DNA of 55,386 nt from Azospirillum sp. 51_20 (GTDB lineage Bacteria > Verrucomicrobiota > Kiritimatiellia > RFP12 > UBA1067), in contig CAVCAF010000001.1 of assembly GCA_963600185.1 (NCBI GenBank), positions 1 to 55,386 of the forward strand, in the 5' to 3' direction. Position 1 is the first letter of the stretch; each line of letters begins with the position of its first letter. The notes under the pieces were generated by a model, which had not been told where the DNA came from, searched no databases, and saw only the letters and a list, made by a program, of their open reading frames with translations. Of this stretch, positions 86 through 40,256 are shown in pieces. The position numbers and the translations under genes were made by a program.

Positions 86-118
86 AAGGGGTTAACTTAC
101 CCCTTTACTTTGATCTTT
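86..118 (+). terminator. possible intrinsic terminator of an off-window upstream gene
   Basis: AAGGGG (86-91) pairs with CCCCTT (100-105), giving a 6-bp stem and 8-nt loop. It is followed by TACTTTGATCTTT, which is only a weak T tail. Confidence 0.3.
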
Positions 119-186
119 GACAATTGAATTTTACTTCGAGGCTAGCTGGCAATAAACTAGAAATGCTAGCGAGTGGGCGCGAGATT

Positions 187-204: not shown

Positions 205-1599
205 ATGAAACTTATGCGAAGGTTGTTTCTAGGTCTAGTCGTCACGAGCTGTGTCGCGCTCAGTGGCTGTTTCTCGGTGGATTCCGCCGCGGCAGAAGCG
301 CGCAAGGCTCTTTTACAGGGCGATATGCCGCGCGTTTGTGCGTGGGCGGAGGAACTGGCGACAAACAGCTCCTACTCTGCCGCGCTTGGGTATGTGGAAG
401 CGGGGCGTGCACGCTTTCTCGCAGGCGACTTCGCCGCGAGTGAGAGTTGGTTTCGCCGCGCCATAGATTCAAGTGTGAAGCGCAGTGAGAGCGGTCCGCG
501 TATCAATCTGACGGATGTTGGGAATACGGCACTCGCGGCGACGGTGACGGATGACCGTACGCGGCAGTATACGCTCGGTGCTTATGAACTGAACTTAGCC
601 CTTCAGTATGGCATTCTCGCCGAGGTGCTGAATAACAAGTATGAAGAGGCCCTCGTTGATTCGCGTCTCGCCATTTATGTGCAAGATACGCTCGCGGAAA
701 AGTTAGGCGGCGACCTCGTCGCGCCTTCCTCCAGCACCAACCAATCGGAACTCGCCGCGCAAAATATCTGCGAAGGACAGGACGCGGCACTGGACGACCT
801 CATAGCGGGGACGCGTAATTCGTGGGAGAATCCTGTCCTTTGGTGGCTGACGGGCATTCTTTTTGAGACGAATGGCGAACTTGACTTCGCGCAACAATCT
901 TACCGCAAGGCGCACGCGATTCGTCCCGAGAACACCTTATTTGCCGCGGACGCCGCGCGGTTCGCCGTGGGCAAGCCCCAACAGCGGTTACCGAAGAAGG
1001 GCAAGGCACGGATAGTCGTCCTTTATGATGCGGGGCTTGTGCCGATGAGGGAGTCGCTCAAGGTGCCCGTCCCCATTTACACAGGCATGGCGATAGACAT
1101 CCCTGTTTATCGTGAAAAGCGCACGACTTACGGGACGCTTCAGGTGGATGGCAGCCAAGGTTCGCTGGGACTTGACGTGACGGCCCTCGCCGCACGCGAC
1201 TTAAAGGAGCAGTTGCCGGGTATTGTCACGCGCAATGTGACGCGCGCGGCAGTGCAGGCTGCCGCCCAAGCCGCCGTTAATAATGCGGGCAATGAGTACG
1301 CCCAAATTGGTGTCTTCGCGGCAAATGCCATTATCTCGGCTCTTCGCCGTGCCGATACGCGCTCGTGGTTGACGCTGCCTGCCCAGACACAAGTCGCCAC
1401 AGTTGAGGATATCACGCCAGGCGCATACGCGCTTAAACTTACGACGGTGCACGGCGTAACGACTTTTGAATGCACCTTAAAGGCGGACGAAACGCGGCTA
1501 ATTTATGTCGCGGATGTTGCGCGTGGTGCGCGGCTTGCTTCCTGTTCACTGGGAGCTACCGCTAATAACACTGTCTTTGAGAATCACGAAGGCTATTAA
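205..1599 (+). CDS. putative lipoprotein of unknown function
   Basis: I trimmed ORF 124..1599 to the ATG at 205. The N-terminus MKLMRRLFLGLVVTSCVALSGC is a signal peptide plus lipobox (LSG|C). It is co-oriented with, and adjacent to, the LpoB-like lipoprotein gene. Confidence 0.6.
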   Translation: MKLMRRLFLGLVVTSCVALSGCFSVDSAAAEARKALLQGDMPRVCAWAEELATNSSYSAALGYVEAGRARFLAGDFAASESWFRRAIDSSVKRSESGPRINLTDVGNTALAATVTDDRTRQYTLGAYELNLALQYGILAEVLNNKYEEALVDSRLAIYVQDTLAEKLGGDLVAPSSSTNQSELAAQNICEGQDAALDDLIAGTRNSWENPVLWWLTGILFETNGELDFAQQSYRKAHAIRPENTLFAADAARFAVGKPQQRLPKKGKARIVVLYDAGLVPMRESLKVPVPIYTGMAIDIPVYREKRTTYGTLQVDGSQGSLGLDVTALAARDLKEQLPGIVTRNVTRAAVQAAAQAAVNNAGNEYAQIGVFAANAIISALRRADTRSWLTLPAQTQVATVEDITPGAYALKLTTVHGVTTFECTLKADETRLIYVADVARGARLASCSLGATANNTVFENHEGY

Positions 1600-1616
1600 A
1601 AAGAAAGGTCCTAATT

Positions 1617-2204
1617 ATGAAACAACTACTCATTCTATTAGCAGTCGCCTCTTTGGCGTATGGGTGCGCGAGTACCAGTGCACGCGAAACGCAACTGGAT
1701 AAGCAGGCACGAAGTGCCGCGCTCGAGCCGCAAGATGTGCGGCGCACGGTTGAAAAGATGGTGGACTCCATGCTCGCTGACGGCGACTTTATTCGTGAAG
1801 TCGGCGGTTCGCGTCCAGTCCTCGATATTGCCAAGGTGCAAAACCGCTCGTCCATGCATCTCGATATGACTTCGCTGACGGACTCTATTCGTACGAAACT
1901 TCTGCGCTCACGCAAGTTCCGTTTTATGGATCACACAACTGCCGCGGACGATTTGCAGTTTATGAATGACCAGGCGCTCAATGGCTTAACGGACTCTAAG
2001 AAGGCTGTTCGTGCGGGTGCACAATCTGCCGCGCAGATGTATCTCTACGGTGCGCTTTCTGAAATGCGTCAGCAGGTGGACGGCGTCACAGACCGTTATT
2101 TCAAGTTCACACTGAACTTAAAGGACTTGCGCTCAGGCGAGATTATCTGGAGCGACGAGCAAGAAATCCGTAAAGAGCAAAAGCGCGGCGTAATCGGCTT
2201 CTAA
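1617..2204 (+). CDS. LpoB-like (COG3417-type) lipoprotein, putative penicillin-binding-protein activator family
   Basis: The N-terminus MKQLLILLAVASLAYGC is a lipoprotein signal. The C-terminal region (YLYGALSEM..YFKFTLNLKDLRSGEIIWSDEQEIRK) resembles the LpoB C-terminal domain pattern. This is a by-eye similarity only. Confidence 0.55.
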   Translation: MKQLLILLAVASLAYGCASTSARETQLDKQARSAALEPQDVRRTVEKMVDSMLADGDFIREVGGSRPVLDIAKVQNRSSMHLDMTSLTDSIRTKLLRSRKFRFMDHTTAADDLQFMNDQALNGLTDSKKAVRAGAQSAAQMYLYGALSEMRQQVDGVTDRYFKFTLNLKDLRSGEIIWSDEQEIRKEQKRGVIGF

Positions 2205-10600: not shown

Positions 10601-10738
10601 CCTTCAAGAGACCGCGGTCTCAGCACCTTGAGACCGCGGTCACTCGACCCTGAGACCGCGGTCTCTTGCCCGATAGACCGCGGTCTCCAAGCCAACAGAC
10701 CGCGGTCTCTAAGCCTATAGACCGCGGTCTCTTGAAGG
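10601..10738. repeat. 22-bp-periodic array (6 units) of the palindrome GAGACCGCGGTCTC with 8-nt variable spacers
   Basis: Units start at 10608, 10630, 10652, 10674, 10696 and 10718. The array is bracketed by CCTTCAAGAGACC and GGTCTCTTGAAGG. Positions 10606-10687 are identical to 40128-40209. Confidence 0.95.
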
Positions 10739-23101: not shown

Positions 23102-24108
23102 TATACGACGCTTTTACATTCTTTAATGAATTAGACTTACTGGAGATTCGGCTTAATACGCTCGCCTCCGTAGTTGATAAGTTCGTAATAGCCGAAGCGA
23201 CGCGCACCCACCGCGGCAAACCCAAGCAACTTTTGTTTGAAGCTAACAAATCGCGCTTTAGTGCGTTTCTTCCGAAGATTATCTACATTAAGGTAGACGA
23301 TCTACTCTCAGAAGAAGAGATAAATAAAGACCCCTATAATCTTGCTTGGGTGAATGAGAATCGTCAGCGGAATGCCCTTAAGCGTGGTTTAATAGAGGCG
23401 CGCGCGAATGATATAATTTTGCTGTCCGATTTGGATGAGATACCGCGCCCCGAAATAGTTGCGCAATTGGAGTCCGTCCTTGATGGAAGTACACGCGGCG
23501 TACGGTTTAGGATGTCCGCTTATTACTATTATCTAAACTATCTTAATTATACAAAACCCGTTTGGGAAATGGGCACATTTGCCGCGCGCTACAGGGTGTT
23601 TGGCGATAATGCCTATCTCAGCCGAACACTTATGGGGCGCTTCACACCTGAGTCTGAAAATCGCGGCGCTACTATGCAACGGCTCCGCTTTATGCCTGCG
23701 GATAGGGACTTGCCGCACGCGGGTTGGCATTTCTCGTACTTGGGAGGCATAGAGGCGATTGAGAATAAATTGCGGTCTTTCTCACATTCTGAGTTTAGTG
23801 CGATACCGCGTCCTGTTTTAGAGCAAAGTATCCGTAAGGGGCGCGATCCATTTGGACGCGGGGAGATGTTTTTTGGCGAGGTGATAGACGATAGCTTCCC
23901 ACGGTATGTGAGAGAAAATCAAGATAAACTTGCCGCCTTAATTTTTAAGGTGGACGCGGACTATCTCGCGCGGACAGCATTCCCGCGGCGGATAGCGAAG
24001 TTAAGGGGGCGCTTGCATACTTTTCTTGTGCGTATAATCCCACAAAAGTGGGTGCCGTCAATATTGCGTGTGCGCGAAGCCTTGCTTAAAAAGTTAGGTA
24101 GGCTATGA
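23098..24108 (+). CDS. glycosyltransferase family 17-like (GnT-III-like) protein
   Basis: The N-terminus MIYDAFTFFNELDLLEIRLNTL...VDKFVIAEATRTH..KPK and the SDLDEIP motif are typical of bacterial GT17 homologues. Confidence 0.75.
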   Translation: MIYDAFTFFNELDLLEIRLNTLASVVDKFVIAEATRTHRGKPKQLLFEANKSRFSAFLPKIIYIKVDDLLSEEEINKDPYNLAWVNENRQRNALKRGLIEARANDIILLSDLDEIPRPEIVAQLESVLDGSTRGVRFRMSAYYYYLNYLNYTKPVWEMGTFAARYRVFGDNAYLSRTLMGRFTPESENRGATMQRLRFMPADRDLPHAGWHFSYLGGIEAIENKLRSFSHSEFSAIPRPVLEQSIRKGRDPFGRGEMFFGEVIDDSFPRYVRENQDKLAALIFKVDADYLARTAFPRRIAKLRGRLHTFLVRIIPQKWVPSILRVREALLKKLGRL

Positions 24109-25394
24109 CCCCAAGTTGCCATAGACCTGTTAAGGAGCGGATGACGCGGCGGTGTCCGTCACATGATTATTCGGTGCGCGGCGTTTATATGATTACGACC
24201 CAGCTCGCGGTGCGGGAGCCGAAGTTGGGTACGCTTGAGCCGATTCCGTGCGGGGAATGGTGCGTGAGGCCGAGTGCGCTTGGCTGGAAGGTTCTTGCTT
24301 GCTGGGAGGCTATCCCTAAACACTGGCCGCAGGTTAAACTTATTGCCCACCAACTCATGCCTGACCACTTTCATGGGCTTTTATTTGTGAAGGAAGATTT
24401 ACCAATCGTCTCGGGACGGCAGAAGGTACTTGGGGATATCATGCGCGGCTTTAAGGCGGGGTGCCGCGAAGTTGGTTGGCAGGCGGGCTTTACGGACTCC
24501 CTCCTCAAGCGCGAAGGGCAACTCGCACAACTCAGGCGCTACATCGCCGATAATCCGCGGCGGTTAGCCGAGAAGCGGCGACATAAGGCGTATTTTAAGG
24601 TCGTAGAAGATTTGGCAATAGAGTTGGGCGGGGGCGTATGCGGTTTGTTTGCGGGGCTCGGGAATGCCGCGCTCGCGAATAAAGTGCCGCGGGTTTATGT
24701 GCAGTGTTCGCGCAAGGACTTCGCATATAAACATACGCGCCTTGAGAGTGGCAATTGGCGCATTGAGCGCAACGAGAAAGGCGCGGCACTTGTTGACTTT
24801 GAAACGCCTACTTTTAAAGAGAAAGCGGCGCAGTTTTTAGAAGCTGTAAAGAAGGGCGCGGTGCTGGTGAGCCCCTGTATCTCGCATGGCGAGAAAGAAA
24901 TCATACGCCGCGCATTTGAGGCGGGCGGTAGTGTAATTTGTCTGCGAAATAAGGGTTTTGGTAAACTAGAGAAACCCATGGGCAAGATGTTTGACCTCTG
25001 TGCCTCGGGGCGACTCTTATTGCTCGCGCCAAAGAATTGGCTCTATACAATGAGTAAAAAGCCAATAAGCCGCGAAGACGCGCTTGTATTAAATACGCTC
25101 ACCCAATTACTCGCGGACAGTGAGGTCGTGGTTAATTATAAGGGTCGGGTACCCAATGGGCTTGGGGCTTTGTGTGCCCAAGCGGTAGATAGCCCTATGT
25201 TAGAGGCGATAATAAATAGCGCCATTTCTGGCGCTAAACCTAACGCCCCCACACCGCCAAGTGACCTGCCCCGCGTATCGCCGCCGTTAACTCAAGCTCA
25301 AACGCGCGTAAACGAGGCTAAAGCCCCGCCCCACCCCCGTGTTGTGCCGTTAGGTTCTGCCGCGGAAACGCGGCAGTTAGGAGCCTTCGTATGA
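24105..25394 (+). CDS. RayT/IS200-like (COG1943, HUH Y1-transposase fold) domain protein with an approx 260-aa C-terminal extension
   Basis: LMPDHFHGLLFV is the HUH motif, alongside WQAGFTDSLL and RRYIADNPRRL. The C-terminal part (GAVLVSPCISHGEKEIIRRAFEAGGSVICLRNKGFG) looks DprA/SLOG-Rossmann-like by eye. The last approx 20 codons run through a REP-like hairpin. Confidence 0.65.
   Translation: MTPSCHRPVKERMTRRCPSHDYSVRGVYMITTQLAVREPKLGTLEPIPCGEWCVRPSALGWKVLACWEAIPKHWPQVKLIAHQLMPDHFHGLLFVKEDLPIVSGRQKVLGDIMRGFKAGCREVGWQAGFTDSLLKREGQLAQLRRYIADNPRRLAEKRRHKAYFKVVEDLAIELGGGVCGLFAGLGNAALANKVPRVYVQCSRKDFAYKHTRLESGNWRIERNEKGAALVDFETPTFKEKAAQFLEAVKKGAVLVSPCISHGEKEIIRRAFEAGGSVICLRNKGFGKLEKPMGKMFDLCASGRLLLLAPKNWLYTMSKKPISREDALVLNTLTQLLADSEVVVNYKGRVPNGLGALCAQAVDSPMLEAIINSAISGAKPNAPTPPSDLPRVSPPLTQAQTRVNEAKAPPHPRVVPLGSAAETRQLGAFV
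25313..25379. repeat. REP-like repeat copy A (CGAGGCTAAAG ... GTGCCGTTAGGTTCTGCCGCGGAAACGCGGCAGTTA)
   Basis: The hairpin CTGCCGCG-GAAA-CGCGGCAG lies at 25357-25376. It is near-identical to 28006-28041. Confidence 0.85.
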
Positions 25395-26155
25395 CCCAGC
25401 CCCTAATCATCTCGGTTGTACGCGACTTCGCGATGTATGAGCGCTCGTTAGGCTCAAACCCCAATTGCCGCGGTTGCCAGCTTATACCTTTAGATAACCG
25501 CGCCAAAAATGAGGGGCTACCCAAACGCTATAACGCGTTTCTCGCCTCGCGTCCGTCTTCAGAAGAGGCGTGGTATATTTTTTGCCATGAGGACTTCGAA
25601 CCGCGCGAGCCGCTTTTGCCGCGGTTAGCCAACCTTGACCCAAACGCCATTTGGGGCGTAATCGGGGCCGTCACACGCGTTAGATTTGGTCTCTATCATC
25701 AATGGCTTCTTCTTGGGCAAATCACCGAATGCAACAAAGATGGCTCAAACGAGCACCCCCTCGGCGAAAAAGTCGCGCTTGGTACACCTGTTGAGACCTT
25801 TGATTGCCAATGCCTAATCGTACACTCTTCACTCATTAGGCGACTCAACTTAAGCTTTGACGAGCACCTAACCTTTGACCTTTATGTGGAAGACTTTTGT
25901 ATGGCTGCTGCCGCGAAAGGGGTTGCCGCGCGTATCTTGCCGCTCGCGTGTCGTCACTGGAGCAATGGTAAGACGCAGCCGCGCTATTATGTCCAAGAAG
26001 CGTATCTCGCTAAGAAGTATCCGAATGTGTGTTTTACGGGCATTATATCGTGTATGCTTGGGGGTAAAGTGCTTTGGGGACGCCGCTTAACGATTTTTCT
26101 ACGGCGTTATGTGCGCGACTCAATCTTGAAGGTCGTCCACGCCTTGTTTAAGTAA
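25391..26155 (+). CDS. putative GT-A-fold glycosyltransferase-like protein
   Basis: LIISVVRD...YNAFL...WYIFCHEDFEP...FDCQCLIVH...FDLYVEDFC...CRHWSNG matches the pattern of small LOS/LPS-locus glycosyltransferases. This is a by-eye call. Confidence 0.5.
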   Translation: MTQPLIISVVRDFAMYERSLGSNPNCRGCQLIPLDNRAKNEGLPKRYNAFLASRPSSEEAWYIFCHEDFEPREPLLPRLANLDPNAIWGVIGAVTRVRFGLYHQWLLLGQITECNKDGSNEHPLGEKVALGTPVETFDCQCLIVHSSLIRRLNLSFDEHLTFDLYVEDFCMAAAAKGVAARILPLACRHWSNGKTQPRYYVQEAYLAKKYPNVCFTGIISCMLGGKVLWGRRLTIFLRRYVRDSILKVVHALFK

Positions 26156-26953
26156 ATAGGCGAAAGTCGTTTTGCCGTGCAACCCGAAGGGCTTGATGCT
26201 TGCCGCGGGGAGCGCGACATACCCCCCCAAATCATCAAACGCGAAATGAAATGCCGCGCTTTCGCTGGGGAAAGTAAACCTGCCCCACGCTTGGGGAACT
26301 AGCCTTAAATAGAAGGTGTAGTAGAAGTCTTCGCCACAATCTCGTGCGAGTCGCCGAAGCCCCTTAGCCCACATTTCTGCCGCGAACGCACAAAAACGCC
26401 GCGAACGGAGCGAGAAGCCTCCGTTATAAGTGCCTAGCCCAATCGCATAGAAGAACTTGCGCTTAAGTCCGTCACAAATTATGGGCGCACCCCAGAAGTC
26501 CGCCTTGCCCAAGAAGTCGCCGAGATTGTCGCTTAGGGGGAATCCGTCATCTTGGATGACTAGGCAATTGGGCGTTGAAAAGCGCGCATGAAGTCGCTGA
26601 ATGCAATCCGCGCTCATAGAAGGGATGTTGCCCGGCACAAGGCTCGGCTCGACTTGTATTTCAACGAACTTCTCGCCGCTTGCGAAGTCGGTCGCCTCTT
26701 TAAAAAGGCGCGGCACAATGAGTACCGTCTTAAGCCCCCCGAGTACATGCCACGATTGGCGAATCGCGAACTCTATCCATTGAAACGATTCCGCCTCGGT
26801 GCCTTCCTTAGGGAAAGAATAGATAATTAGCGTGACTTCGTCAAAGTATTTAGAGACGGCGGGCGTTTCGGCACGCAAAGTGGGTAGCCGCTTTAGTTGC
26901 CAGTCGCGTAAGAGCTTCGTCGCTTCCTTTATCTCGTCTTGAGTCAACTTCAT
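26120..26953 (-). CDS. DUF5672-like putative glycosyltransferase
   Basis: YNGGFSLRSRR and VIQDDGFP motifs are present. The gene converges on, and overlaps by 36 nt, the + strand gene. Confidence 0.5.
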   Translation of the reverse strand: MKLTQDEIKEATKLLRDWQLKRLPTLRAETPAVSKYFDEVTLIIYSFPKEGTEAESFQWIEFAIRQSWHVLGGLKTVLIVPRLFKEATDFASGEKFVEIQVEPSLVPGNIPSMSADCIQRLHARFSTPNCLVIQDDGFPLSDNLGDFLGKADFWGAPIICDGLKRKFFYAIGLGTYNGGFSLRSRRFCAFAAEMWAKGLRRLARDCGEDFYYTFYLRLVPQAWGRFTFPSESAAFHFAFDDLGGYVALPAASIKPFGLHGKTTFAYLLKQGVDDLQD

Positions 26954-27831
26954 TTTCTAAGAAAAACCTTGTCTACGAAGTGGGCAACGCCTTGCGCACC
27001 AAACACCTTGCGCGAGGTATTCATGATATGCCGTATTAAGCGCATAATAAACGCCATAGCGAAATACCCAAGTTTCGCGAGCGGGAGGGGATATTTACCC
27101 GCCGTAATCGAATAGCCCTGCGCTGTTATAGAATAGGAGAGCGCGGTCTCTAGAAGCCCCGCGAGCCCAAAGTCGACATGCGCAATCTTAGGCGTGACTT
27201 CTAGAAAGTCGTCCCATGTGAAGCGGGCGACAAACGGCTTAAGAAGTGCCGCGCGAACCATGAAGATTGTGCCCGCGACGGAAACTAGAGCCCGCGGCGT
27301 AAGCCCAAGCGACCGCAATAAATTACAGGCTGAAGTTTTACTTTCTAGGCAAAAGTCGCTACTCGCGTAGTTAATAAAGCAGCTGGAAGCGAGGAGCCCA
27401 AGTTTGGGGTGGCGCGTAAATGCCGCGAGGGATTCGCGCACTTTCTCGGGTGACGCACAAAACGCGAGGAGCTTTCGCCGCCATTCGTTGCCGTGAACTG
27501 GACGGAATCCGATAATGCCGTCCACATCGCGCTTCGTGTGCAACTTGACGATGTAGTCGTAATTCTCAAGAGGGCCTTTGTTCAGAACTTCGCAGACGAA
27601 CGCGCCGACATCGTATCCGCGATTAGGTGTCTCAATTATCTTGACAGCGGGATAGGGCAACAACTTCGGTAAAAGCGCGGCAAACTCAGGCTTTACGGTA
27701 GGATATGTCGCGATAATCGAAACACGCTCCGCGCCGCAAACTTCGATGAAGTTGCGGCAACACTCCGCAATCTCGGGGGCGATTTCCGGATAGAAGAAGT
27801 GAGCATGTATAAGTACGCGGCAATCTCTCAT
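26950..27831 (-). CDS. RgpF (rhamnan synthesis protein F)-like polysaccharide glycosyltransferase
   Basis: LIHAHFFYPEI...PNRGYDVGAF...KLHTKR motifs are present. Confidence 0.6.
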   Translation of the reverse strand: MRDCRVLIHAHFFYPEIAPEIAECCRNFIEVCGAERVSIIATYPTVKPEFAALLPKLLPYPAVKIIETPNRGYDVGAFVCEVLNKGPLENYDYIVKLHTKRDVDGIIGFRPVHGNEWRRKLLAFCASPEKVRESLAAFTRHPKLGLLASSCFINYASSDFCLESKTSACNLLRSLGLTPRALVSVAGTIFMVRAALLKPFVARFTWDDFLEVTPKIAHVDFGLAGLLETALSYSITAQGYSITAGKYPLPLAKLGYFAMAFIMRLIRHIMNTSRKVFGAQGVAHFVDKVFLRK

Positions 27832-27838
27832 TGCGGAT

Positions 27839-27847
27839 ATTATACCA
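27839..27847 (-). promoter_or_regulatory. extended -10 promoter TGGTATAAT (minus strand), leaderless configuration
   Basis: The reverse complement of 27839-27847 is TGGTATAAT. Only 7 nt (ATCCGCA) separate the hexamer from the ATG at 27831. Confidence 0.6.
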
Positions 27848-27926
27848 AAACTCGCCCCACGATACCATACGCGATTTTATTCGCCACGCTTTGGGCGACG
27901 TTAACTTTAACCCCAATGCGAGTTGC

Positions 27927-28041
27927 CGAGGCTAAAGTAGTGCCCTTACCTAGTGTAGTGCCGTTAGGTTCTGCTGCGTTTGAAGTTGCGACCTTACCCA
28001 GTGTCGCACCGTTAGGTTCTGCCGCGGAAACGCGGCAGTTA
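27927..28041. repeat. REP-like repeat copy B (two sub-units, the second carrying the hairpin)
   Basis: CGAGGCTAAAG lies at 27927. CCTTACC(T/C)AGTGT.G..CCGTTAGGTTCTGC occurs twice, about 46 nt apart. The hairpin CTGCCGCGGAAACGCGGCAG lies at 28019-28038. Confidence 0.85.
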
Positions 28042-28069
28042 AGGGCCTGCTTAAGGCGCGTGAGAGTAA

Positions 28070-28143
28070 GTAGAAGGGGGTGGCGCTCTTACTGGGAGAG
28101 GCACCCCCTCTTGCGTAGGAGGGGGTGGCAGTTCTACTGGGAC
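28070..28143. repeat. 45-nt tandem duplication (GTAG(A/G)AGGGGGTGGC..T.CT.ACTGGGA)
   Basis: The units start at 28070 and 28115. Confidence 0.8.
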
Positions 28144-28331
28144 GGGTACCCGCTCGCGCCGTCTTTCGCGTCATCTTGGGCTACTTTCCAAAACCTTGTC
28201 AAGTTTTTTTTAAAACTTTTTTCACCTGTGATGGGTAGAAAATGGCACTTAGCCATCTTCGCGTTTTTCGCACCCAAACTCACTGCGGAATTCGCGTCCA
28301 AACCGCGGCACTTACCGCGGCAGATTGGCAA

Positions 28332-28400
28332 GGGGCGGGGAAGGGTGGCAAAAGTGGGGGTTTTGGGGTGGCTAAAAACCCGATTTTGGGTGTTTTGGGG
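28332..28400 (+). other. G-run cluster with T4G4-like units (potential G-quadruplex)
   Basis: GGGG-C-GGGG-AA-GGG ... GGGGGTTTTGGGG ... GATTTTGGG-TGTTTTGGGGG. Confidence 0.6.
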
Positions 28401-28699
28401 GTGCGGAGAGGTGTCCGTCGGCGAGATCAAGATTTAAAATGCCATAATCGGTGACTAGGAGGCTCGTATTGCGCTTGGAAGGGTTCGGATGTGGGAGGAT
28501 ACACCCCAAAGCGAGGAGCCCCTAAAATCGAAAATTTTCGGGGTGTCTGGCGATTAGGCATTTTGGACGGATTTCGTCCGCGGCAAAATCGCGGCATTTC
28601 CGCGGCGTTTTGGAGGCTAAAAACCGTGCTTTTGGCAGTCAGGTTTCGGGCAAGTAAGCTAATAGCCCCAACTGTCCAACTGTAAAAATAACTAAAAAA

Positions 28700-29341: not shown

Positions 29342-29418
29342 GGGCTATTAGCTCAGTTGGTTAGAGCGCTTCCTTGACATGGAAGAGGTCAGTAGTTCGA
29401 ATCTACTATAGCCCACCA
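29342..29418 (+). tRNA. tRNA-Val (anticodon GAC), CCA encoded
   Basis: The cloverleaf was folded by hand. The acceptor stem is GGGCTAT/ATAGCCC, the D-arm is GCTC-AGTTGGTTA-GAGC, the anticodon stem is CTTCC/GGAAG with loop TTGACAT, and the T-arm is AGTAG-TTCGAAT-CTACT. Confidence 0.92.
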
Positions 29419-40116: not shown

Positions 40117-40129
40117 GCGCGGAGGCTAA

Positions 40130-40256
40130 GAGACCGCGGTCTCAGCACCTTGAGACCGCGGTCACTCGACCCTGAGACCGCGGTCTCTTGCCCGATAGAC
40201 CGCGGTCTCTCACCCTTGAGACCGCGGTCTCTGAGCCTATAGACCGCGGTCTCTTA
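40130..40256. repeat. 22-bp-periodic array (6 units) of the palindrome GAGACCGCGGTCTC
   Basis: Units start at 40130, 40152, 40174, 40196, 40218 and 40240. The first four units plus their spacers are identical to the 10.6-kb locus. Confidence 0.95.

What the first reader, a model, noticed from the sequence alone, without database searches (positions are those of the whole stretch)
25313..28041. REP-like hairpin repeats in direct orientation bracket a 2.6-kb three-gene glycosyl-modification module
The block CGAGGCTAAAG-N20-GTGCCGTTAGGTTCTGCCGCGGAAACGCGGCAGTTA (25313-25379) recurs at 27927-28041. There the CCTTACC.AGTGT.G..CCGTTAGGTTCTGC sub-unit is duplicated. The core is a perfect 8-bp stem with a GAAA tetraloop (25357-25376 and 28019-28038, 2662 bp apart).

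Between the copies lie exactly three genes: a GT-A-like gene on the + strand, then a DUF5672-like gene and an RgpF-like gene. The last two are the only minus-strand genes in the whole 55-kb window. Copy A is embedded in the 3' end of the RayT-like ORF and overlaps the next start codon.

Direct repeats around an oppositely oriented cassette suggest either insertion of a cassette or a substrate for excision or deletion (on/off switching of a surface glycan).
Basis: partly seen in the sequence, partly recalled or inferred. Interest (0 to 1): 0.62.

Follow-up and report, generated by a model that had tools for sequence, protein, structure and literature searches.

The report
REP hairpins flanking glycan genes
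The two identical hairpin repeats belong to a species-specific family of about 66 small palindromic (REP/REPIN) elements that sits next to its likely transposase-like gene. The pair most likely marks an old local duplication in a fast-rearranging sugar-gene island, not the ends of an inserted three-gene cassette.

Summary
A perfect 33-bp core (25347-25379 = 28009-28041) holds an 8-bp stem with a GAAA loop. It lies in about 110-160 nt of weaker homology, and copy B carries a 48-nt tandem duplication.

The exact core occurs only twice in the 1.99-Mb draft genome. It is nevertheless one member of a dispersed family: TTAGGTT foot + 8-bp GC stem + GAAA loop. The family has 57-66 copies, mostly outside open frames and at contig ends, often paired as inverted doublets (REPINs). 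It is absent from 116 other species of the genus.

The adjacent 429-aa gene folds like E. coli REP-associated tyrosine transposase (4er8), fused to a DprA-like domain. Its disordered tail is read through a complete REPIN whose 3' arm is copy A.

Relatives refute cassette insertion. The common arrangement TatD-GT4-GTA/RgpF has no repeats, and gene content varies gene by gene. One strain (L047) has RgpF - single REP - GT-A - the same non-coding region. Copy B keeps a remnant of the GT-A leader, so it looks like the scar of a duplicated REP-GT-A block.

No empty site or deletion variant was found, and excision could not be tested with reads.

The parts
24105..25394 (+). RayT-like gene (P0001, 429 aa). 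It has an N-terminal HUH/Y1 domain (HFH at residues 88-90, Tyr146) and a DprA-like C-terminal domain. The disordered tail (residues ~372-429) is translated through the REPIN.
   Evidence: AF2 model: pLDDT 82, residues 378-429 below 50. Foldseek top hit 4er8_A, TnpA_REP bound to a REP hairpin, E = 1.7e-5; then IS200/IS605 TnpAs; DprA 4ljk at probability 0.97. NF047646 scores only 27 bits against a cut-off of 80. Invariant H88, H90 and Y146. More distant homologues are conserved only to residue ~362.
25217..25247 (-). 5' REP of the RayT-adjacent REPIN, in inverted orientation. On the + strand it reads AGCGCCA-TTTC-TGGCGCT followed by the foot AACCTAAC.
   Evidence: R1 covariance model, 43.9 bits. 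Folds at -9.4 kcal/mol, z = -4.4. The 16-mer AACCTAACGCCCCCAC occurs 12 times in the genome.
25248..25345 (+). REPIN spacer. It is about 60 nt longer than in strains L028 and X1, and the extra part is homologous to the sequence upstream of copy B.
   Evidence: Alignment A1. L028 sequence. The X1 contig skips 25261-25327.
25346..25376 (+). Copy A: the 3' REP of the REPIN. Foot TTAGGTT at 25350-25356; hairpin at 25357-25376; perfect 33-bp core at 25347-25379.
   Evidence: R1 score 48 bits. Identical in L028, L045, L047 and X1.
25377..25390 (+). Leader of the next gene, carrying a Shine-Dalgarno-like AGGAG (TTAGGAGCCTTCGT). It follows the REP in every strain that has the REP followed by the GT-A-like gene.
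25391..26155 (+). It matches no Pfam or NCBIfam family. It has 415 homologues in Kiritimatiellae-type contigs. Its last 36 nt overlap the 3' end of the DUF5672 gene on the opposite strand.
26120..26953 (-). DUF5672-family gene.
   Evidence: PF18922, E = 2e-12. Absent from G052, L047 and L049-L052.
26950..27831 (-). RgpF-like (rhamnan synthesis protein F family) gene.
   Evidence: PF05045, E = 6.5e-15. Orthologues in all the compared loci that extend across that position.
27832..27880 (.). Sequence upstream of RgpF, including its promoter. It is shared with L046, L045 and L047 and is not derived from the REPIN.
   Evidence: Alignment A1.
27896..28007 (+). The part of copy B that is homologous to the REPIN spacer. 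It contains a 48-nt tandem duplication (27924-27971 and 27972-28019). The first unit carries the foot but only a broken hairpin.
   Evidence: families D1, D2. R1 weak match at 27960-28001, 14.7 bits. Unit number is 2 in G000 and L045 and 1 in L046.
28008..28038 (+). Copy B: a single REP with no inverted partner. Foot at 28012-28018; hairpin at 28019-28038; perfect core at 28009-28041.
   Evidence: R1 score 44.1 bits. No 5' partner was found in the window.
28039..28049 (+). TTAAGGGCCTG, a probable remnant of the GT-A leader (compare TTAGGAGCCTT at copy A and TTAGGGGGCTT in L047). From 28050 (CTTAAGGCGCG) the sequence is collinear with what follows the GT-A gene in L047.
   Evidence: family D3, 57 nt at 86%.. 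The match is short, so this is suggestive only.
28070..28155 (+). Two GTAG-tagged GGGGGTGGC...GCCACCCCC palindromes. They belong to a second dispersed repeat family and open the 1.3-kb gene-free stretch before tRNA-Val (29342-29418).
   Evidence: (family D4).

Best explanation
**What the two repeats are.** They are copies of a REP element. The unit is a 7-nt foot (TTAGGTT), an 8-bp GC-rich stem and a GAAA loop. The family has about 66 copies in this Kiritimatiellae genome, often arranged as inverted doublets (REPINs).

**Where each copy sits.** Copy A is the 3' arm of a complete REPIN at the 3' end of the genome's only clear RayT-like (HUH/Y1) gene. The gene is read through that REPIN. Copy B is a lone REP 2.6 kb downstream.

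**How the pair arose (inferred).** It did not arise by insertion of the three genes. Copy B also carries about 110 nt of REPIN spacer upstream and about 11 nt of the GT-A leader downstream. It is therefore the leftover first part of a duplicated segment (REP-leader-GT-A...) whose remainder was deleted. A sister strain still has GT-A behind the REP at that site.

**What keeps the core identical (inferred).** The foot and hairpin are probably the binding and cleavage site of the RayT-like protein on single-stranded DNA. That would explain why the 33-bp core is identical in every copy seen across five strains. Gene conversion between A and B is also evident.

**Consequence (inferred).** The REPs act as break or join points in a glycan-gene island that is reshuffled gene by gene between strains.
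For: **Family membership (shown)**
- A script found 57 units of TTAGGTT + stem + GAAA + stem; 43 lie within 400 nt of a contig end.
- Of the 50 perfect 8-bp hairpins with a GAAA loop in the genome, 42 are preceded by exactly TTAGGTT.
- Seven of the 8 stem pairs show compensatory changes, while the foot and loop are invariant.
- Covariance model R1 finds 66 matches in G000. It finds none above noise in 116 other species of the genus or in 16 genomes of the same order.
- Fourteen further inverted doublets have about 45-nt spacers.
- 51 of 56 units lie outside any open frame of 120 aa or more, although such frames cover 95% of the genome.

**RayT link**
- The fold search gives 4er8_A as top hit, and H88, H90 and Y146 are invariant.
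- P0001 is the only gene of its kind in G000 flanked by these REPs.
- Orthologous contigs L028, L029 and L032 all have the doublet at the gene's 3' end, with a different 3' stem in L029 (CGCGCCA-GAAA-TGGCGCG) and different spacer lengths; L031 keeps only a single hairpin (CGCGCCA-GAAA-TGGCGCG). The encoded peptide is not conserved.

**Not a cassette insertion**
- The arrangement TatD-GT4-GTA (plus strand), converging with RgpF (minus strand), has no REP in G052 and L049-L052.
- L029 has RayT-REPIN converging with DUF5672-RgpF, followed directly by tRNA-Val, with no copy B and no GT-A.

**Duplication scar**
- L047 reads TatD-GT4, RgpF (minus strand), one REP with the identical core, leader, GT-A at 89% identity. 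It then runs directly into the same non-coding region that follows copy B in the window.
- The A/B homology overruns the REP on both sides.

**Conservation and conversion**
- The core is 33/33 identical at every position read, in G000 A and B, L028 A, L046 B, L045 (both contig ends, truncated within the core), L047 and X1. Flanking sequence differs by about 5-20%.
- Copy A of G000 has an extra ~60 nt, including GAGGCTAAAG. It shares this with its own copy B but not with copy A of L028 or X1.
Against: - The exact stem of copies A and B (CTGCCGCG) occurs nowhere else in the genome. The RayT-flanking REPs are therefore not the family's abundant 'master' sequence.
- The foot is not the GTAG or CGTC tag of described REP superfamilies.
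- The protein scores far below the curated RAYT model (27 bits against 80). It has paralogues at 40-50% identity in several copies per genome in other species that lack this REP family.
- The 'leader scar' is only about 11 nt long.
- The order of events (duplication then deletion, or some other rearrangement) cannot be fixed from five to six short metagenomic contigs.
- L047's left half comes from a different lineage (RgpF 72% identical against GT-A 89%). Recombination between strains therefore confuses the history.
- No biochemical evidence links this protein to these hairpins.
Confidence: 0.65

Rival explanations
1. The three genes form a discrete cassette that was inserted between, or can be excised through, the two direct repeats. 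The route would be recombination or RayT action, and the result would be on/off switching of a surface glycan.
For: - The perfect 33-bp direct repeats are conserved at both sites in at least three strains.
- An HUH/Y1 enzyme is encoded next door. IS200/IS605 ends are hairpins in direct orientation on one strand (established knowledge).
- Gene order in L047 is a circular permutation of the REP-bounded block, as a circular intermediate would give.
- The L045 contig ends inside the core at both ends.
Against: - GT-A and RgpF are resident at this locus in many relatives without repeats.
- Content differs gene by gene: no GT-A in L029-L032, no DUF5672 in G052 or L047. It never differs as a three-gene unit.
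- No contig has RayT-REP joined directly to the region downstream of copy B.
- The homology overruns the REP, which is unlike a precise transposon end.
- The L045 contig ends are what a k=31 assembler produces at a 33-bp repeat.
- Read-level data were unavailable.
Confidence: 0.15
2. The hairpin acts mainly at the RNA level. It would be a stabilising or insulating stem-loop in the 5' leader of the GT-A-like mRNA, or a terminator or processing site after the RayT-like gene. It would be conserved for that reason, and copy B would be a non-functional relic.
For: - In every strain that has the gene behind it, the REP sits 14-15 nt upstream of the GT-A start, just before the Shine-Dalgarno sequence.
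- In L047 a TGGTATAAT-type promoter lies about 75 nt upstream, which would put the hairpin in the 5' UTR.
- Described REPs stabilise mRNA and attenuate transcription (PMC3733652 abstract, seen).
Against: - Copy B has no gene behind it, yet it keeps a perfect core in three strains.
- No U-tract follows the hairpin on either strand.
- The same foot + hairpin + loop recurs about 60 times elsewhere with different stems, which points to a shared DNA-level recognition.
- This reading is compatible with the best explanation. It is not an alternative origin for the repeats.
Confidence: 0.15
3. The repeat is protein-coding. It would encode a repeated C-terminal peptide (VVPLGSAAETRQL), and copy B would belong to a real gene (ORF 27799-28437).
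For: Both copies are in open frames, and the peptides are similar.
Against: - The tail from residue 378 on is predicted to be disordered.
- Orthologues keep the hairpin but not the peptide: AAETRQ, AAPEMAR, and a different frame in L030.
- ORF 27799-28437 matches no family and runs through dispersed palindromic repeats.
- More distant homologues end near residue 362-375.
Confidence: 0.03

Closest known systems
REP / REPIN elements with their RAYT (TnpA_REP) genes: 'REPtron' of E. coli, REPINs of Pseudomonas fluorescens SBW25 (PMC3116915, PMC3337134, PMC5581495, PMC3479197)
   Same: - Short GC-rich hairpins with a conserved oligonucleotide at the 5' foot.
- Tens of copies, mostly extragenic.
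- Arranged as inverted doublets that can fold into one long hairpin.
- Species-specific.
- A doublet sits directly beside a single HUH/Y1 gene whose predicted fold is closest to E. coli TnpA_REP bound to its REP.
   Different: - The foot is TTAGGTT, not GTAG or CGTC.
- Stems vary freely between sub-families while the foot and GAAA loop are fixed.
- The copies flanking the gene carry a stem found nowhere else.
- The REPIN lies inside the gene's open frame as a disordered tail.
- The protein is 429 aa with a DprA-like second domain, and it fails the curated RAYT model.
- The host is a Kiritimatiellae (PVC group) metagenome-assembled genome.
REP-mediated chromosomal duplications and rearrangements (Shyamala, Schneider & Ames 1990, EMBO J 9:939, as cited in PMC11708052)
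   Same: REP copies sit at the join-points of a local duplication or rearrangement. The result is a direct REP repeat around a few kilobases.
   Different: Here the event is inferred from strain comparison, not observed. The duplicate has been largely deleted again. Whether RecA-type recombination or the RayT-like enzyme made the joint is unknown.
IS200/IS605-family transposons and their transposase-less derivatives (for example IS608 and ISDra2; structures 2vju and 2xm3)
   Same: A related HUH/Y1 fold. Sub-terminal hairpins in the same orientation on one strand bracket a segment.
   Different: - The Y1 gene lies outside the bracketed segment.
- The segment is single-copy.
- Its genes are ancestral residents of the locus.
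- No empty or filled site pairs exist.
- The homology extends beyond the hairpins.

Membership tests
REP/REPIN elements | Short GC-rich palindrome that forms a stable hairpin | tested here: met
   8-bp stem with GAAA loop; -12.2 kcal/mol, z = -4.2. Seven of 8 pairs covary across 21 distinct units.
REP/REPIN elements | Many dispersed copies in the genome, mostly extragenic | tested here: met
   57 units by script and 66 by covariance model. 51 of 56 lie outside open frames of 120 aa or more, which cover 95% of the genome. The exact 30-mer of the finding has only 2 copies.
REP/REPIN elements | Conserved oligonucleotide at the 5' foot of the hairpin (GTAG or CGTC in the described superfamilies) | tested here: inconclusive
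   An invariant foot exists (TTAGGTT; 42 of 50 GAAA hairpins), but it is neither GTAG nor CGTC (PMC3733652, PMC3479197).
REP/REPIN elements | Inverted doublets (REPINs) able to form a long hairpin | tested here: met
   14 doublets plus the one in the window. The L029 doublet folds as a perfect 31-bp hairpin at -52 kcal/mol. Copy B itself is a singlet.
REP/REPIN elements | A REP or REPIN directly flanks a RAYT gene, and the flanking 16-mers are abundant genome-wide | tested here: met
   The REPIN at 25217-25376 overlaps the 3' end of P0001. The best flanking 16-mer, AACCTAACGCCCCCAC, occurs 12 times. The 16-mers of the hairpin stems occur only 2-3 times.
REP/REPIN elements | Mobilised (cleaved and joined) by the RAYT | not testable with these tools
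   Only co-occurrence is available. The REP family and the orthologous gene are found together in this lineage and in none of 116 other species of the genus.
RAYT / TnpA_REP (HUH Y1 nuclease) | HUH motif and catalytic tyrosine in a Y1-transposase fold | tested here: met
   H88-F-H90 and Y146 are invariant in 30 homologues. Foldseek top hit is 4er8_A, E = 1.7e-5, probability 1.0.
RAYT / TnpA_REP (HUH Y1 nuclease) | Reaches the curated family model score (NF047646 at 80 bits or more; Pfam Y1_Tnp) | tested here: not met
   NF047646 scores 27.2 bits, E = 2.9e-6. No Pfam hit at E of 0.01 or better.
RAYT / TnpA_REP (HUH Y1 nuclease) | Single copy per genome, vertically inherited | tested here: inconclusive
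   G000 has one copy, plus one weak unrelated Y1-like ORF on contig C135. Paralogues at 40-50% identity occur in up to 10 copies in other species of the genus.
RAYT / TnpA_REP (HUH Y1 nuclease) | Single-domain protein of about 150-200 aa | tested here: not met
   429 aa. Residues ~165-375 form a DprA-like domain (4ljk at probability 0.97; ShosA 8zva).
Mobile cassette bounded by direct repeats (transposon, or excisable element with att sites) | Empty-site and filled-site variants, with the same genes absent as a unit | tested here: not met
   Seven related locus types were compared. Genes vary singly, and no RayT-REP-downstream junction was seen. The sample is small.
Mobile cassette bounded by direct repeats (transposon, or excisable element with att sites) | Repeats end exactly at the element boundary (target-site duplication or core site) | tested here: not met
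   Homology runs about 65-110 nt upstream and about 11-15 nt downstream of the REP. It also includes a variable 48-nt unit.
Mobile cassette bounded by direct repeats (transposon, or excisable element with att sites) | Excision or deletion junctions detectable in reads | not testable with these tools
   No run of the source sample is served. The one related run (X1) has a depth of 2-6.

The most novel reading that the evidence does not exclude
The RayT-DprA fusion protein actively uses same-orientation REPs as left-end and right-end-like sites. It would cut out or copy the DNA between them as single-stranded circles. This would produce the circularly permuted and gene-by-gene variable orders seen between strains (G000 against L047). 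That would amount to a domesticated HUH transposase shuffling surface-glycan genes, with the DprA-like domain loading or protecting the single-stranded intermediate.
Probability: 0.1. Interest if true: 0.8.

Novelty: new member of a known kind. Interest (0 to 1): 0.45.

Why it matters
- **Taxonomic reach.** REP/REPIN-RAYT systems have been studied mostly in Proteobacteria. This is a clean, species-specific case in a Kiritimatiellae (PVC group) gut-type genome.
- **What is recognised.** The family has an unusual signature: a fixed foot and loop with freely covarying stems. That points to the foot, the loop and the hairpin shape as what the enzyme reads.
- **An unusual partner protein.** The associated protein carries an extra DprA-like domain, which binds single-stranded DNA in its known relatives.
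- **REPs at rearrangement joints.** REP copies sit exactly at the joints of rearrangements in a variable glycan-gene island. This is a concrete example of such elements shaping surface-structure loci.
- **Practical point.** These repeats account for many of the contig breaks in this assembly.

Tried and rejected
- **Reads-level test for deletion or circle junctions.** Four run searches found only one low-depth relative (X1). It carries the short L028-type tail and has no informative joints.
- **Census of the exact hairpin in public collections.** Genome contigs gave 12 unrelated single hits, which is chance level. JGI metagenomes gave 0 hits for the 28-mer.
- **Search of the L028 assembly as a whole genome.** That assembly is not held.
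- **Sequence search of PDB with the family profile.** The only hit was a marginal match to the retron Ec86 effector (E = 0.48). The fold search was needed instead.
- **An earlier idea that copy B's homology starts right after the RgpF promoter (27855).** I rejected it because 27855-27880 is shared with L047, where no spacer homology follows.
- **Assembly mis-join as an explanation for L047.** I rejected this because its GT-A-to-non-coding junction and its REP-upstream sequence are unique and not repeat-bounded.
- **REP-like hairpins beside paralogues of P0001 in other species (L004, L006, L048).** Nothing convincing was found.

Full report

Yes. The 30-mer CCGTTAGGTTCTGCCGCGGAAACGCGGCAG occurs exactly twice in the window, at 25347-25376 and 28009-28038. 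It matched in none of 100 shuffles. Perfect identity runs over 33 bp. Weaker homology (73-86%) extends over 25282-25394 and 27896-28053. Copy B contains a 48-nt tandem duplication. The core is an 8-bp stem with a GAAA loop that folds at -12.2 kcal/mol as single-stranded DNA, z = -4.2.

The genes between the copies are as described. The other two are a DUF5672 gene and an RgpF gene on the minus strand. Other long minus-strand ORFs in the window are shadows of real plus-strand genes.

**2. Is it a dispersed repeat?**

The exact core is not. It has two copies in the 1.99-Mb, 203-contig genome. It gave 12 unrelated single hits among 185,579 species genomes and none in JGI metagenomes.

Weak partial hits at contig ends led to a looser search, and that search found a true family. 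The unit is TTAGGTT + 8-bp GC-rich stem + GAAA + complementary stem.

- A script finds 57 units, 43 of them within 400 nt of a contig end, so they break the assembly and are under-counted.
- Of all 50 perfect 8-bp hairpins with a GAAA loop in the genome, 42 are preceded by exactly TTAGGTT and 4 more by a one-mismatch version.
- The stems fall into sub-families: GCGAAGCG 22, GCGGAGCG 16, TCGGGGCG 10, and rarer ones.
- The rarer stems include CTGCCGCG, found only in the finding's two copies, and TAGCGCCA, found once at 25217-25243 on the minus strand.
- Seven of 8 stem pairs show compensatory changes, while the foot and loop never vary. The units were selected for pairing, so the percentage paired is by construction; the variety of stems is not.
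- Units are often paired as [stem-TTTC-stem]AACCTAAC - ~45 nt - GTTAGGTT[stem-GAAA-stem]. There are 14 such doublets besides the one in the window.
- 51 of 56 units lie outside any open frame of 120 aa or more, although such frames cover 95% of the genome.
- A covariance model of the unit finds 66 matches in this genome. It finds nothing above noise in 116 other species of the genus or in 16 genomes of the same order.

**3. The neighbouring gene.**

ORF 24105-25394 (P0001) has invariant H88-x-H90 and Y146. It gives a confident AlphaFold model (pLDDT 82). The closest solved structure is E. coli TnpA_REP bound to a REP hairpin (4er8_A, E = 1.7e-5), followed by IS200/IS605 transposases. Residues ~165-375 resemble DprA.

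The protein does not reach the curated RAYT model (27 bits against 80). Residues 378-429 are predicted to be disordered, and more distant homologues end near residue 362-375.

The disorder begins where a complete REP doublet begins. The doublet has a 5' REP at 25217-25247 (inverted), a spacer, and a 3' REP at 25346-25376, which is copy A. The open frame simply runs through the element to a stop that overlaps the next ATG.

G000 has no other gene of this kind next to such REPs.

**4. Orthologous loci.**

Contigs carrying close orthologues of the gene all have the structure at the same place, but not the same peptide.

- L028 (91% identity) has an identical core and a spacer 60 nt shorter.
- L032 has a 13-nt spacer.
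- L029 has a perfect 31-bp long hairpin whose 3' arm is CGCGCCA-GAAA-TGGCGCG.
- L031 keeps a single hairpin with the interior missing.
- In L030 a deletion joins codon ~295 of the gene to the REP.

Selection is therefore on the DNA or RNA structure, not on the encoded tail.

**5. Is the three-gene block a cassette?**

No. The widespread arrangement in related species is OTCase-M3 peptidase-TatD-GT4-GTA (plus strand), converging with RgpF (minus strand). It has no RayT-like gene, no DUF5672 and no repeats (G052; L049-L052).

L029-L032 have the RayT-like gene converging with DUF5672-RgpF and no GT-A. In L029, RgpF is followed directly by tRNA-Val with no copy B. Gene content thus changes one gene at a time.

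Three strains have both copies with the same perfect core: G000; L028 plus L046, which come from one assembly; and L045. L045's contig ends inside the core at both ends, as a k=31 assembler would produce.

**6. Where copy B came from.**

Contig L047, read in window orientation, runs TatD-GT4, RgpF (minus strand), a promoter-like stretch, one REP with the identical 33-bp core, and the same leader. GT-A follows at 89% identity, then directly the non-coding sequence that follows copy B in the window (CTTAAGGCGCG..GTAGAAGGGGGTGGC..), and finally tRNA-Val.

In the window, copy B is followed by TTAAGGGCCTG, which resembles the GT-A leader (TTAGGAGCCTT at copy A, TTAGGGGGCTT in L047). From 28050 it is followed by that same non-coding sequence. 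Upstream, copy B shares about 65-110 nt with the REPIN spacer.

The duplicated block therefore overruns the REP on both sides. That is what remains when a segment starting in the spacer (spacer-REP-leader-GT-A...) is duplicated downstream of RgpF and most of the second copy is then lost.

The leader REP-TTAGG-SD-ATG cannot come from the GT4-GTA arrangement, where the two genes overlap. The site next to the RayT-like gene is therefore the source.

The exact order of events is inference. L047's left half comes from another lineage (RgpF 72% against GT-A 89%), and the 'scar' is short.

Copy A of G000 carries about 60 nt, including GAGGCTAAAG. It shares this with its own copy B but not with copy A of L028 or X1. 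This indicates gene conversion between the two copies. The 48-nt unit number also varies: 2 in G000 and L045, 1 in L046.

**7. How it most likely works.**

- *Shown:* family membership, the doublet architecture, the adjacency to a TnpA_REP-like fold, lineage specificity, and strain-to-strain rearrangement with the REP at the joint.
- *Inferred:* the RayT-like protein binds the foot and hairpin on single-stranded DNA, by analogy with the GTAG foot that E. coli TnpA_REP needs for binding and cleavage (PMC3479197).
- *Also inferred:* this binding keeps the 33-bp core identical in every copy seen across five strains, while flanks differ by 5-20%. The REPs then serve as break or join points for duplication and deletion, as REPs do at duplication join-points in Salmonella (Shyamala et al. 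1990, cited in PMC11708052).
- *Not excluded but unsupported:* ongoing excision or deletion of the 2.6-kb block, and an RNA-level role of the hairpin in the GT-A leader.

**8. Comparison with what is known, and novelty.**

This works like a REP/REPIN-RAYT system (PMC3116915, PMC5581495). It meets the structural and distributional criteria. It departs in five ways:

- the foot sequence;
- the unique stems of the gene-flanking copies;
- the REPIN lying inside the open frame;
- the two-domain protein that fails the curated model;
- paralogues that are multi-copy in other species.

I file the repeats as a new member of a known kind. The bracketed-cassette reading is largely refuted. The RayT-DprA fusion and REP-linked shuffling of glycan genes are the parts worth following up.

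**9. Dead ends.**

Read-level tests, whole-assembly search of L028's genome, the sequence-only PDB search, and a look for REPs beside paralogues in other species gave nothing usable.

Noticed in passing
window 28070-28155: Two GTAG-tagged palindromes (GTAGAAGGGGGTGGC...GGCACCCCC) belong to a second dispersed repeat family. Copies lie on at least 10 contigs (C3, C21, C43, C91 and others), sometimes next to TTAGGTT REPs (C43, C91).
   Followed up: partly
window 110-128: The 19-mer TTGATCTTTGACAATTGAA occurs 55 times on 52 contigs, typically within a few hundred bases of a contig end. It is a third abundant repeat and contains a TTGACA -35-like hexamer.
   Followed up: no
window 10607-10666 and 40129-40232: Arrays of GAGACCGCGGTCTC palindromes spaced about 44 nt apart. 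The 16-mer AGAGACCGCGGTCTCA occurs 50 times on 24 contigs.
   Followed up: no
window 24105-25394 (P0001): The HUH/Y1 domain is fused to a DprA-like domain. The family has 973 database homologues and no Pfam domain. It occurs in up to 10 copies per genome in other species of the genus, at 40-50% identity, without this REP family.
   Followed up: partly
L030 2280-2330 and 3149-4041: In this strain the RayT-like gene is truncated by a deletion that joins codon ~295 to AGGTGCTGCCGCGGAAACGCGGCAG. The RgpF gene is called only as fragments, so it is probably a pseudogene.
   Followed up: no
L031 3680-3705: This orthologous locus has a single hairpin (CGCGCCA-GAAA-TGGCGCG) where L029 has a full inverted doublet. 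It looks as if the interior was lost by recombination between the two self-complementary arms.
   Followed up: no
window 26120-26155: The GT-A-like gene and the DUF5672 gene converge and overlap by 36 nt. The last ~10 residues of the GT-A-like protein differ in each genomic context (G000, L047, G052), so the rearrangement breakpoints lie at its very 3' end.
   Followed up: partly
window 25391-26155: The 'GT-A-like' protein has 415 homologues at E of 1e-20 or better but matches no Pfam or NCBIfam family. In relatives it is a constant partner of RgpF, in the arrangement TatD-GT4-[this gene] converging with RgpF.
   Followed up: partly
G000 contig C135, ~700-1700 (minus strand): A second, weak Y1_Tnp-like open frame of 341 aa (PF01797, 18 bits, below the cut-off). 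No TTAGGTT REPs lie on its contig.
   Followed up: no
L047 (reverse strand) 2180-2110: A TGGTATAAT extended -10 element lies about 75 nt upstream of the GT-A start. This would place the REP hairpin in the 5' UTR in that strain.
   Followed up: no
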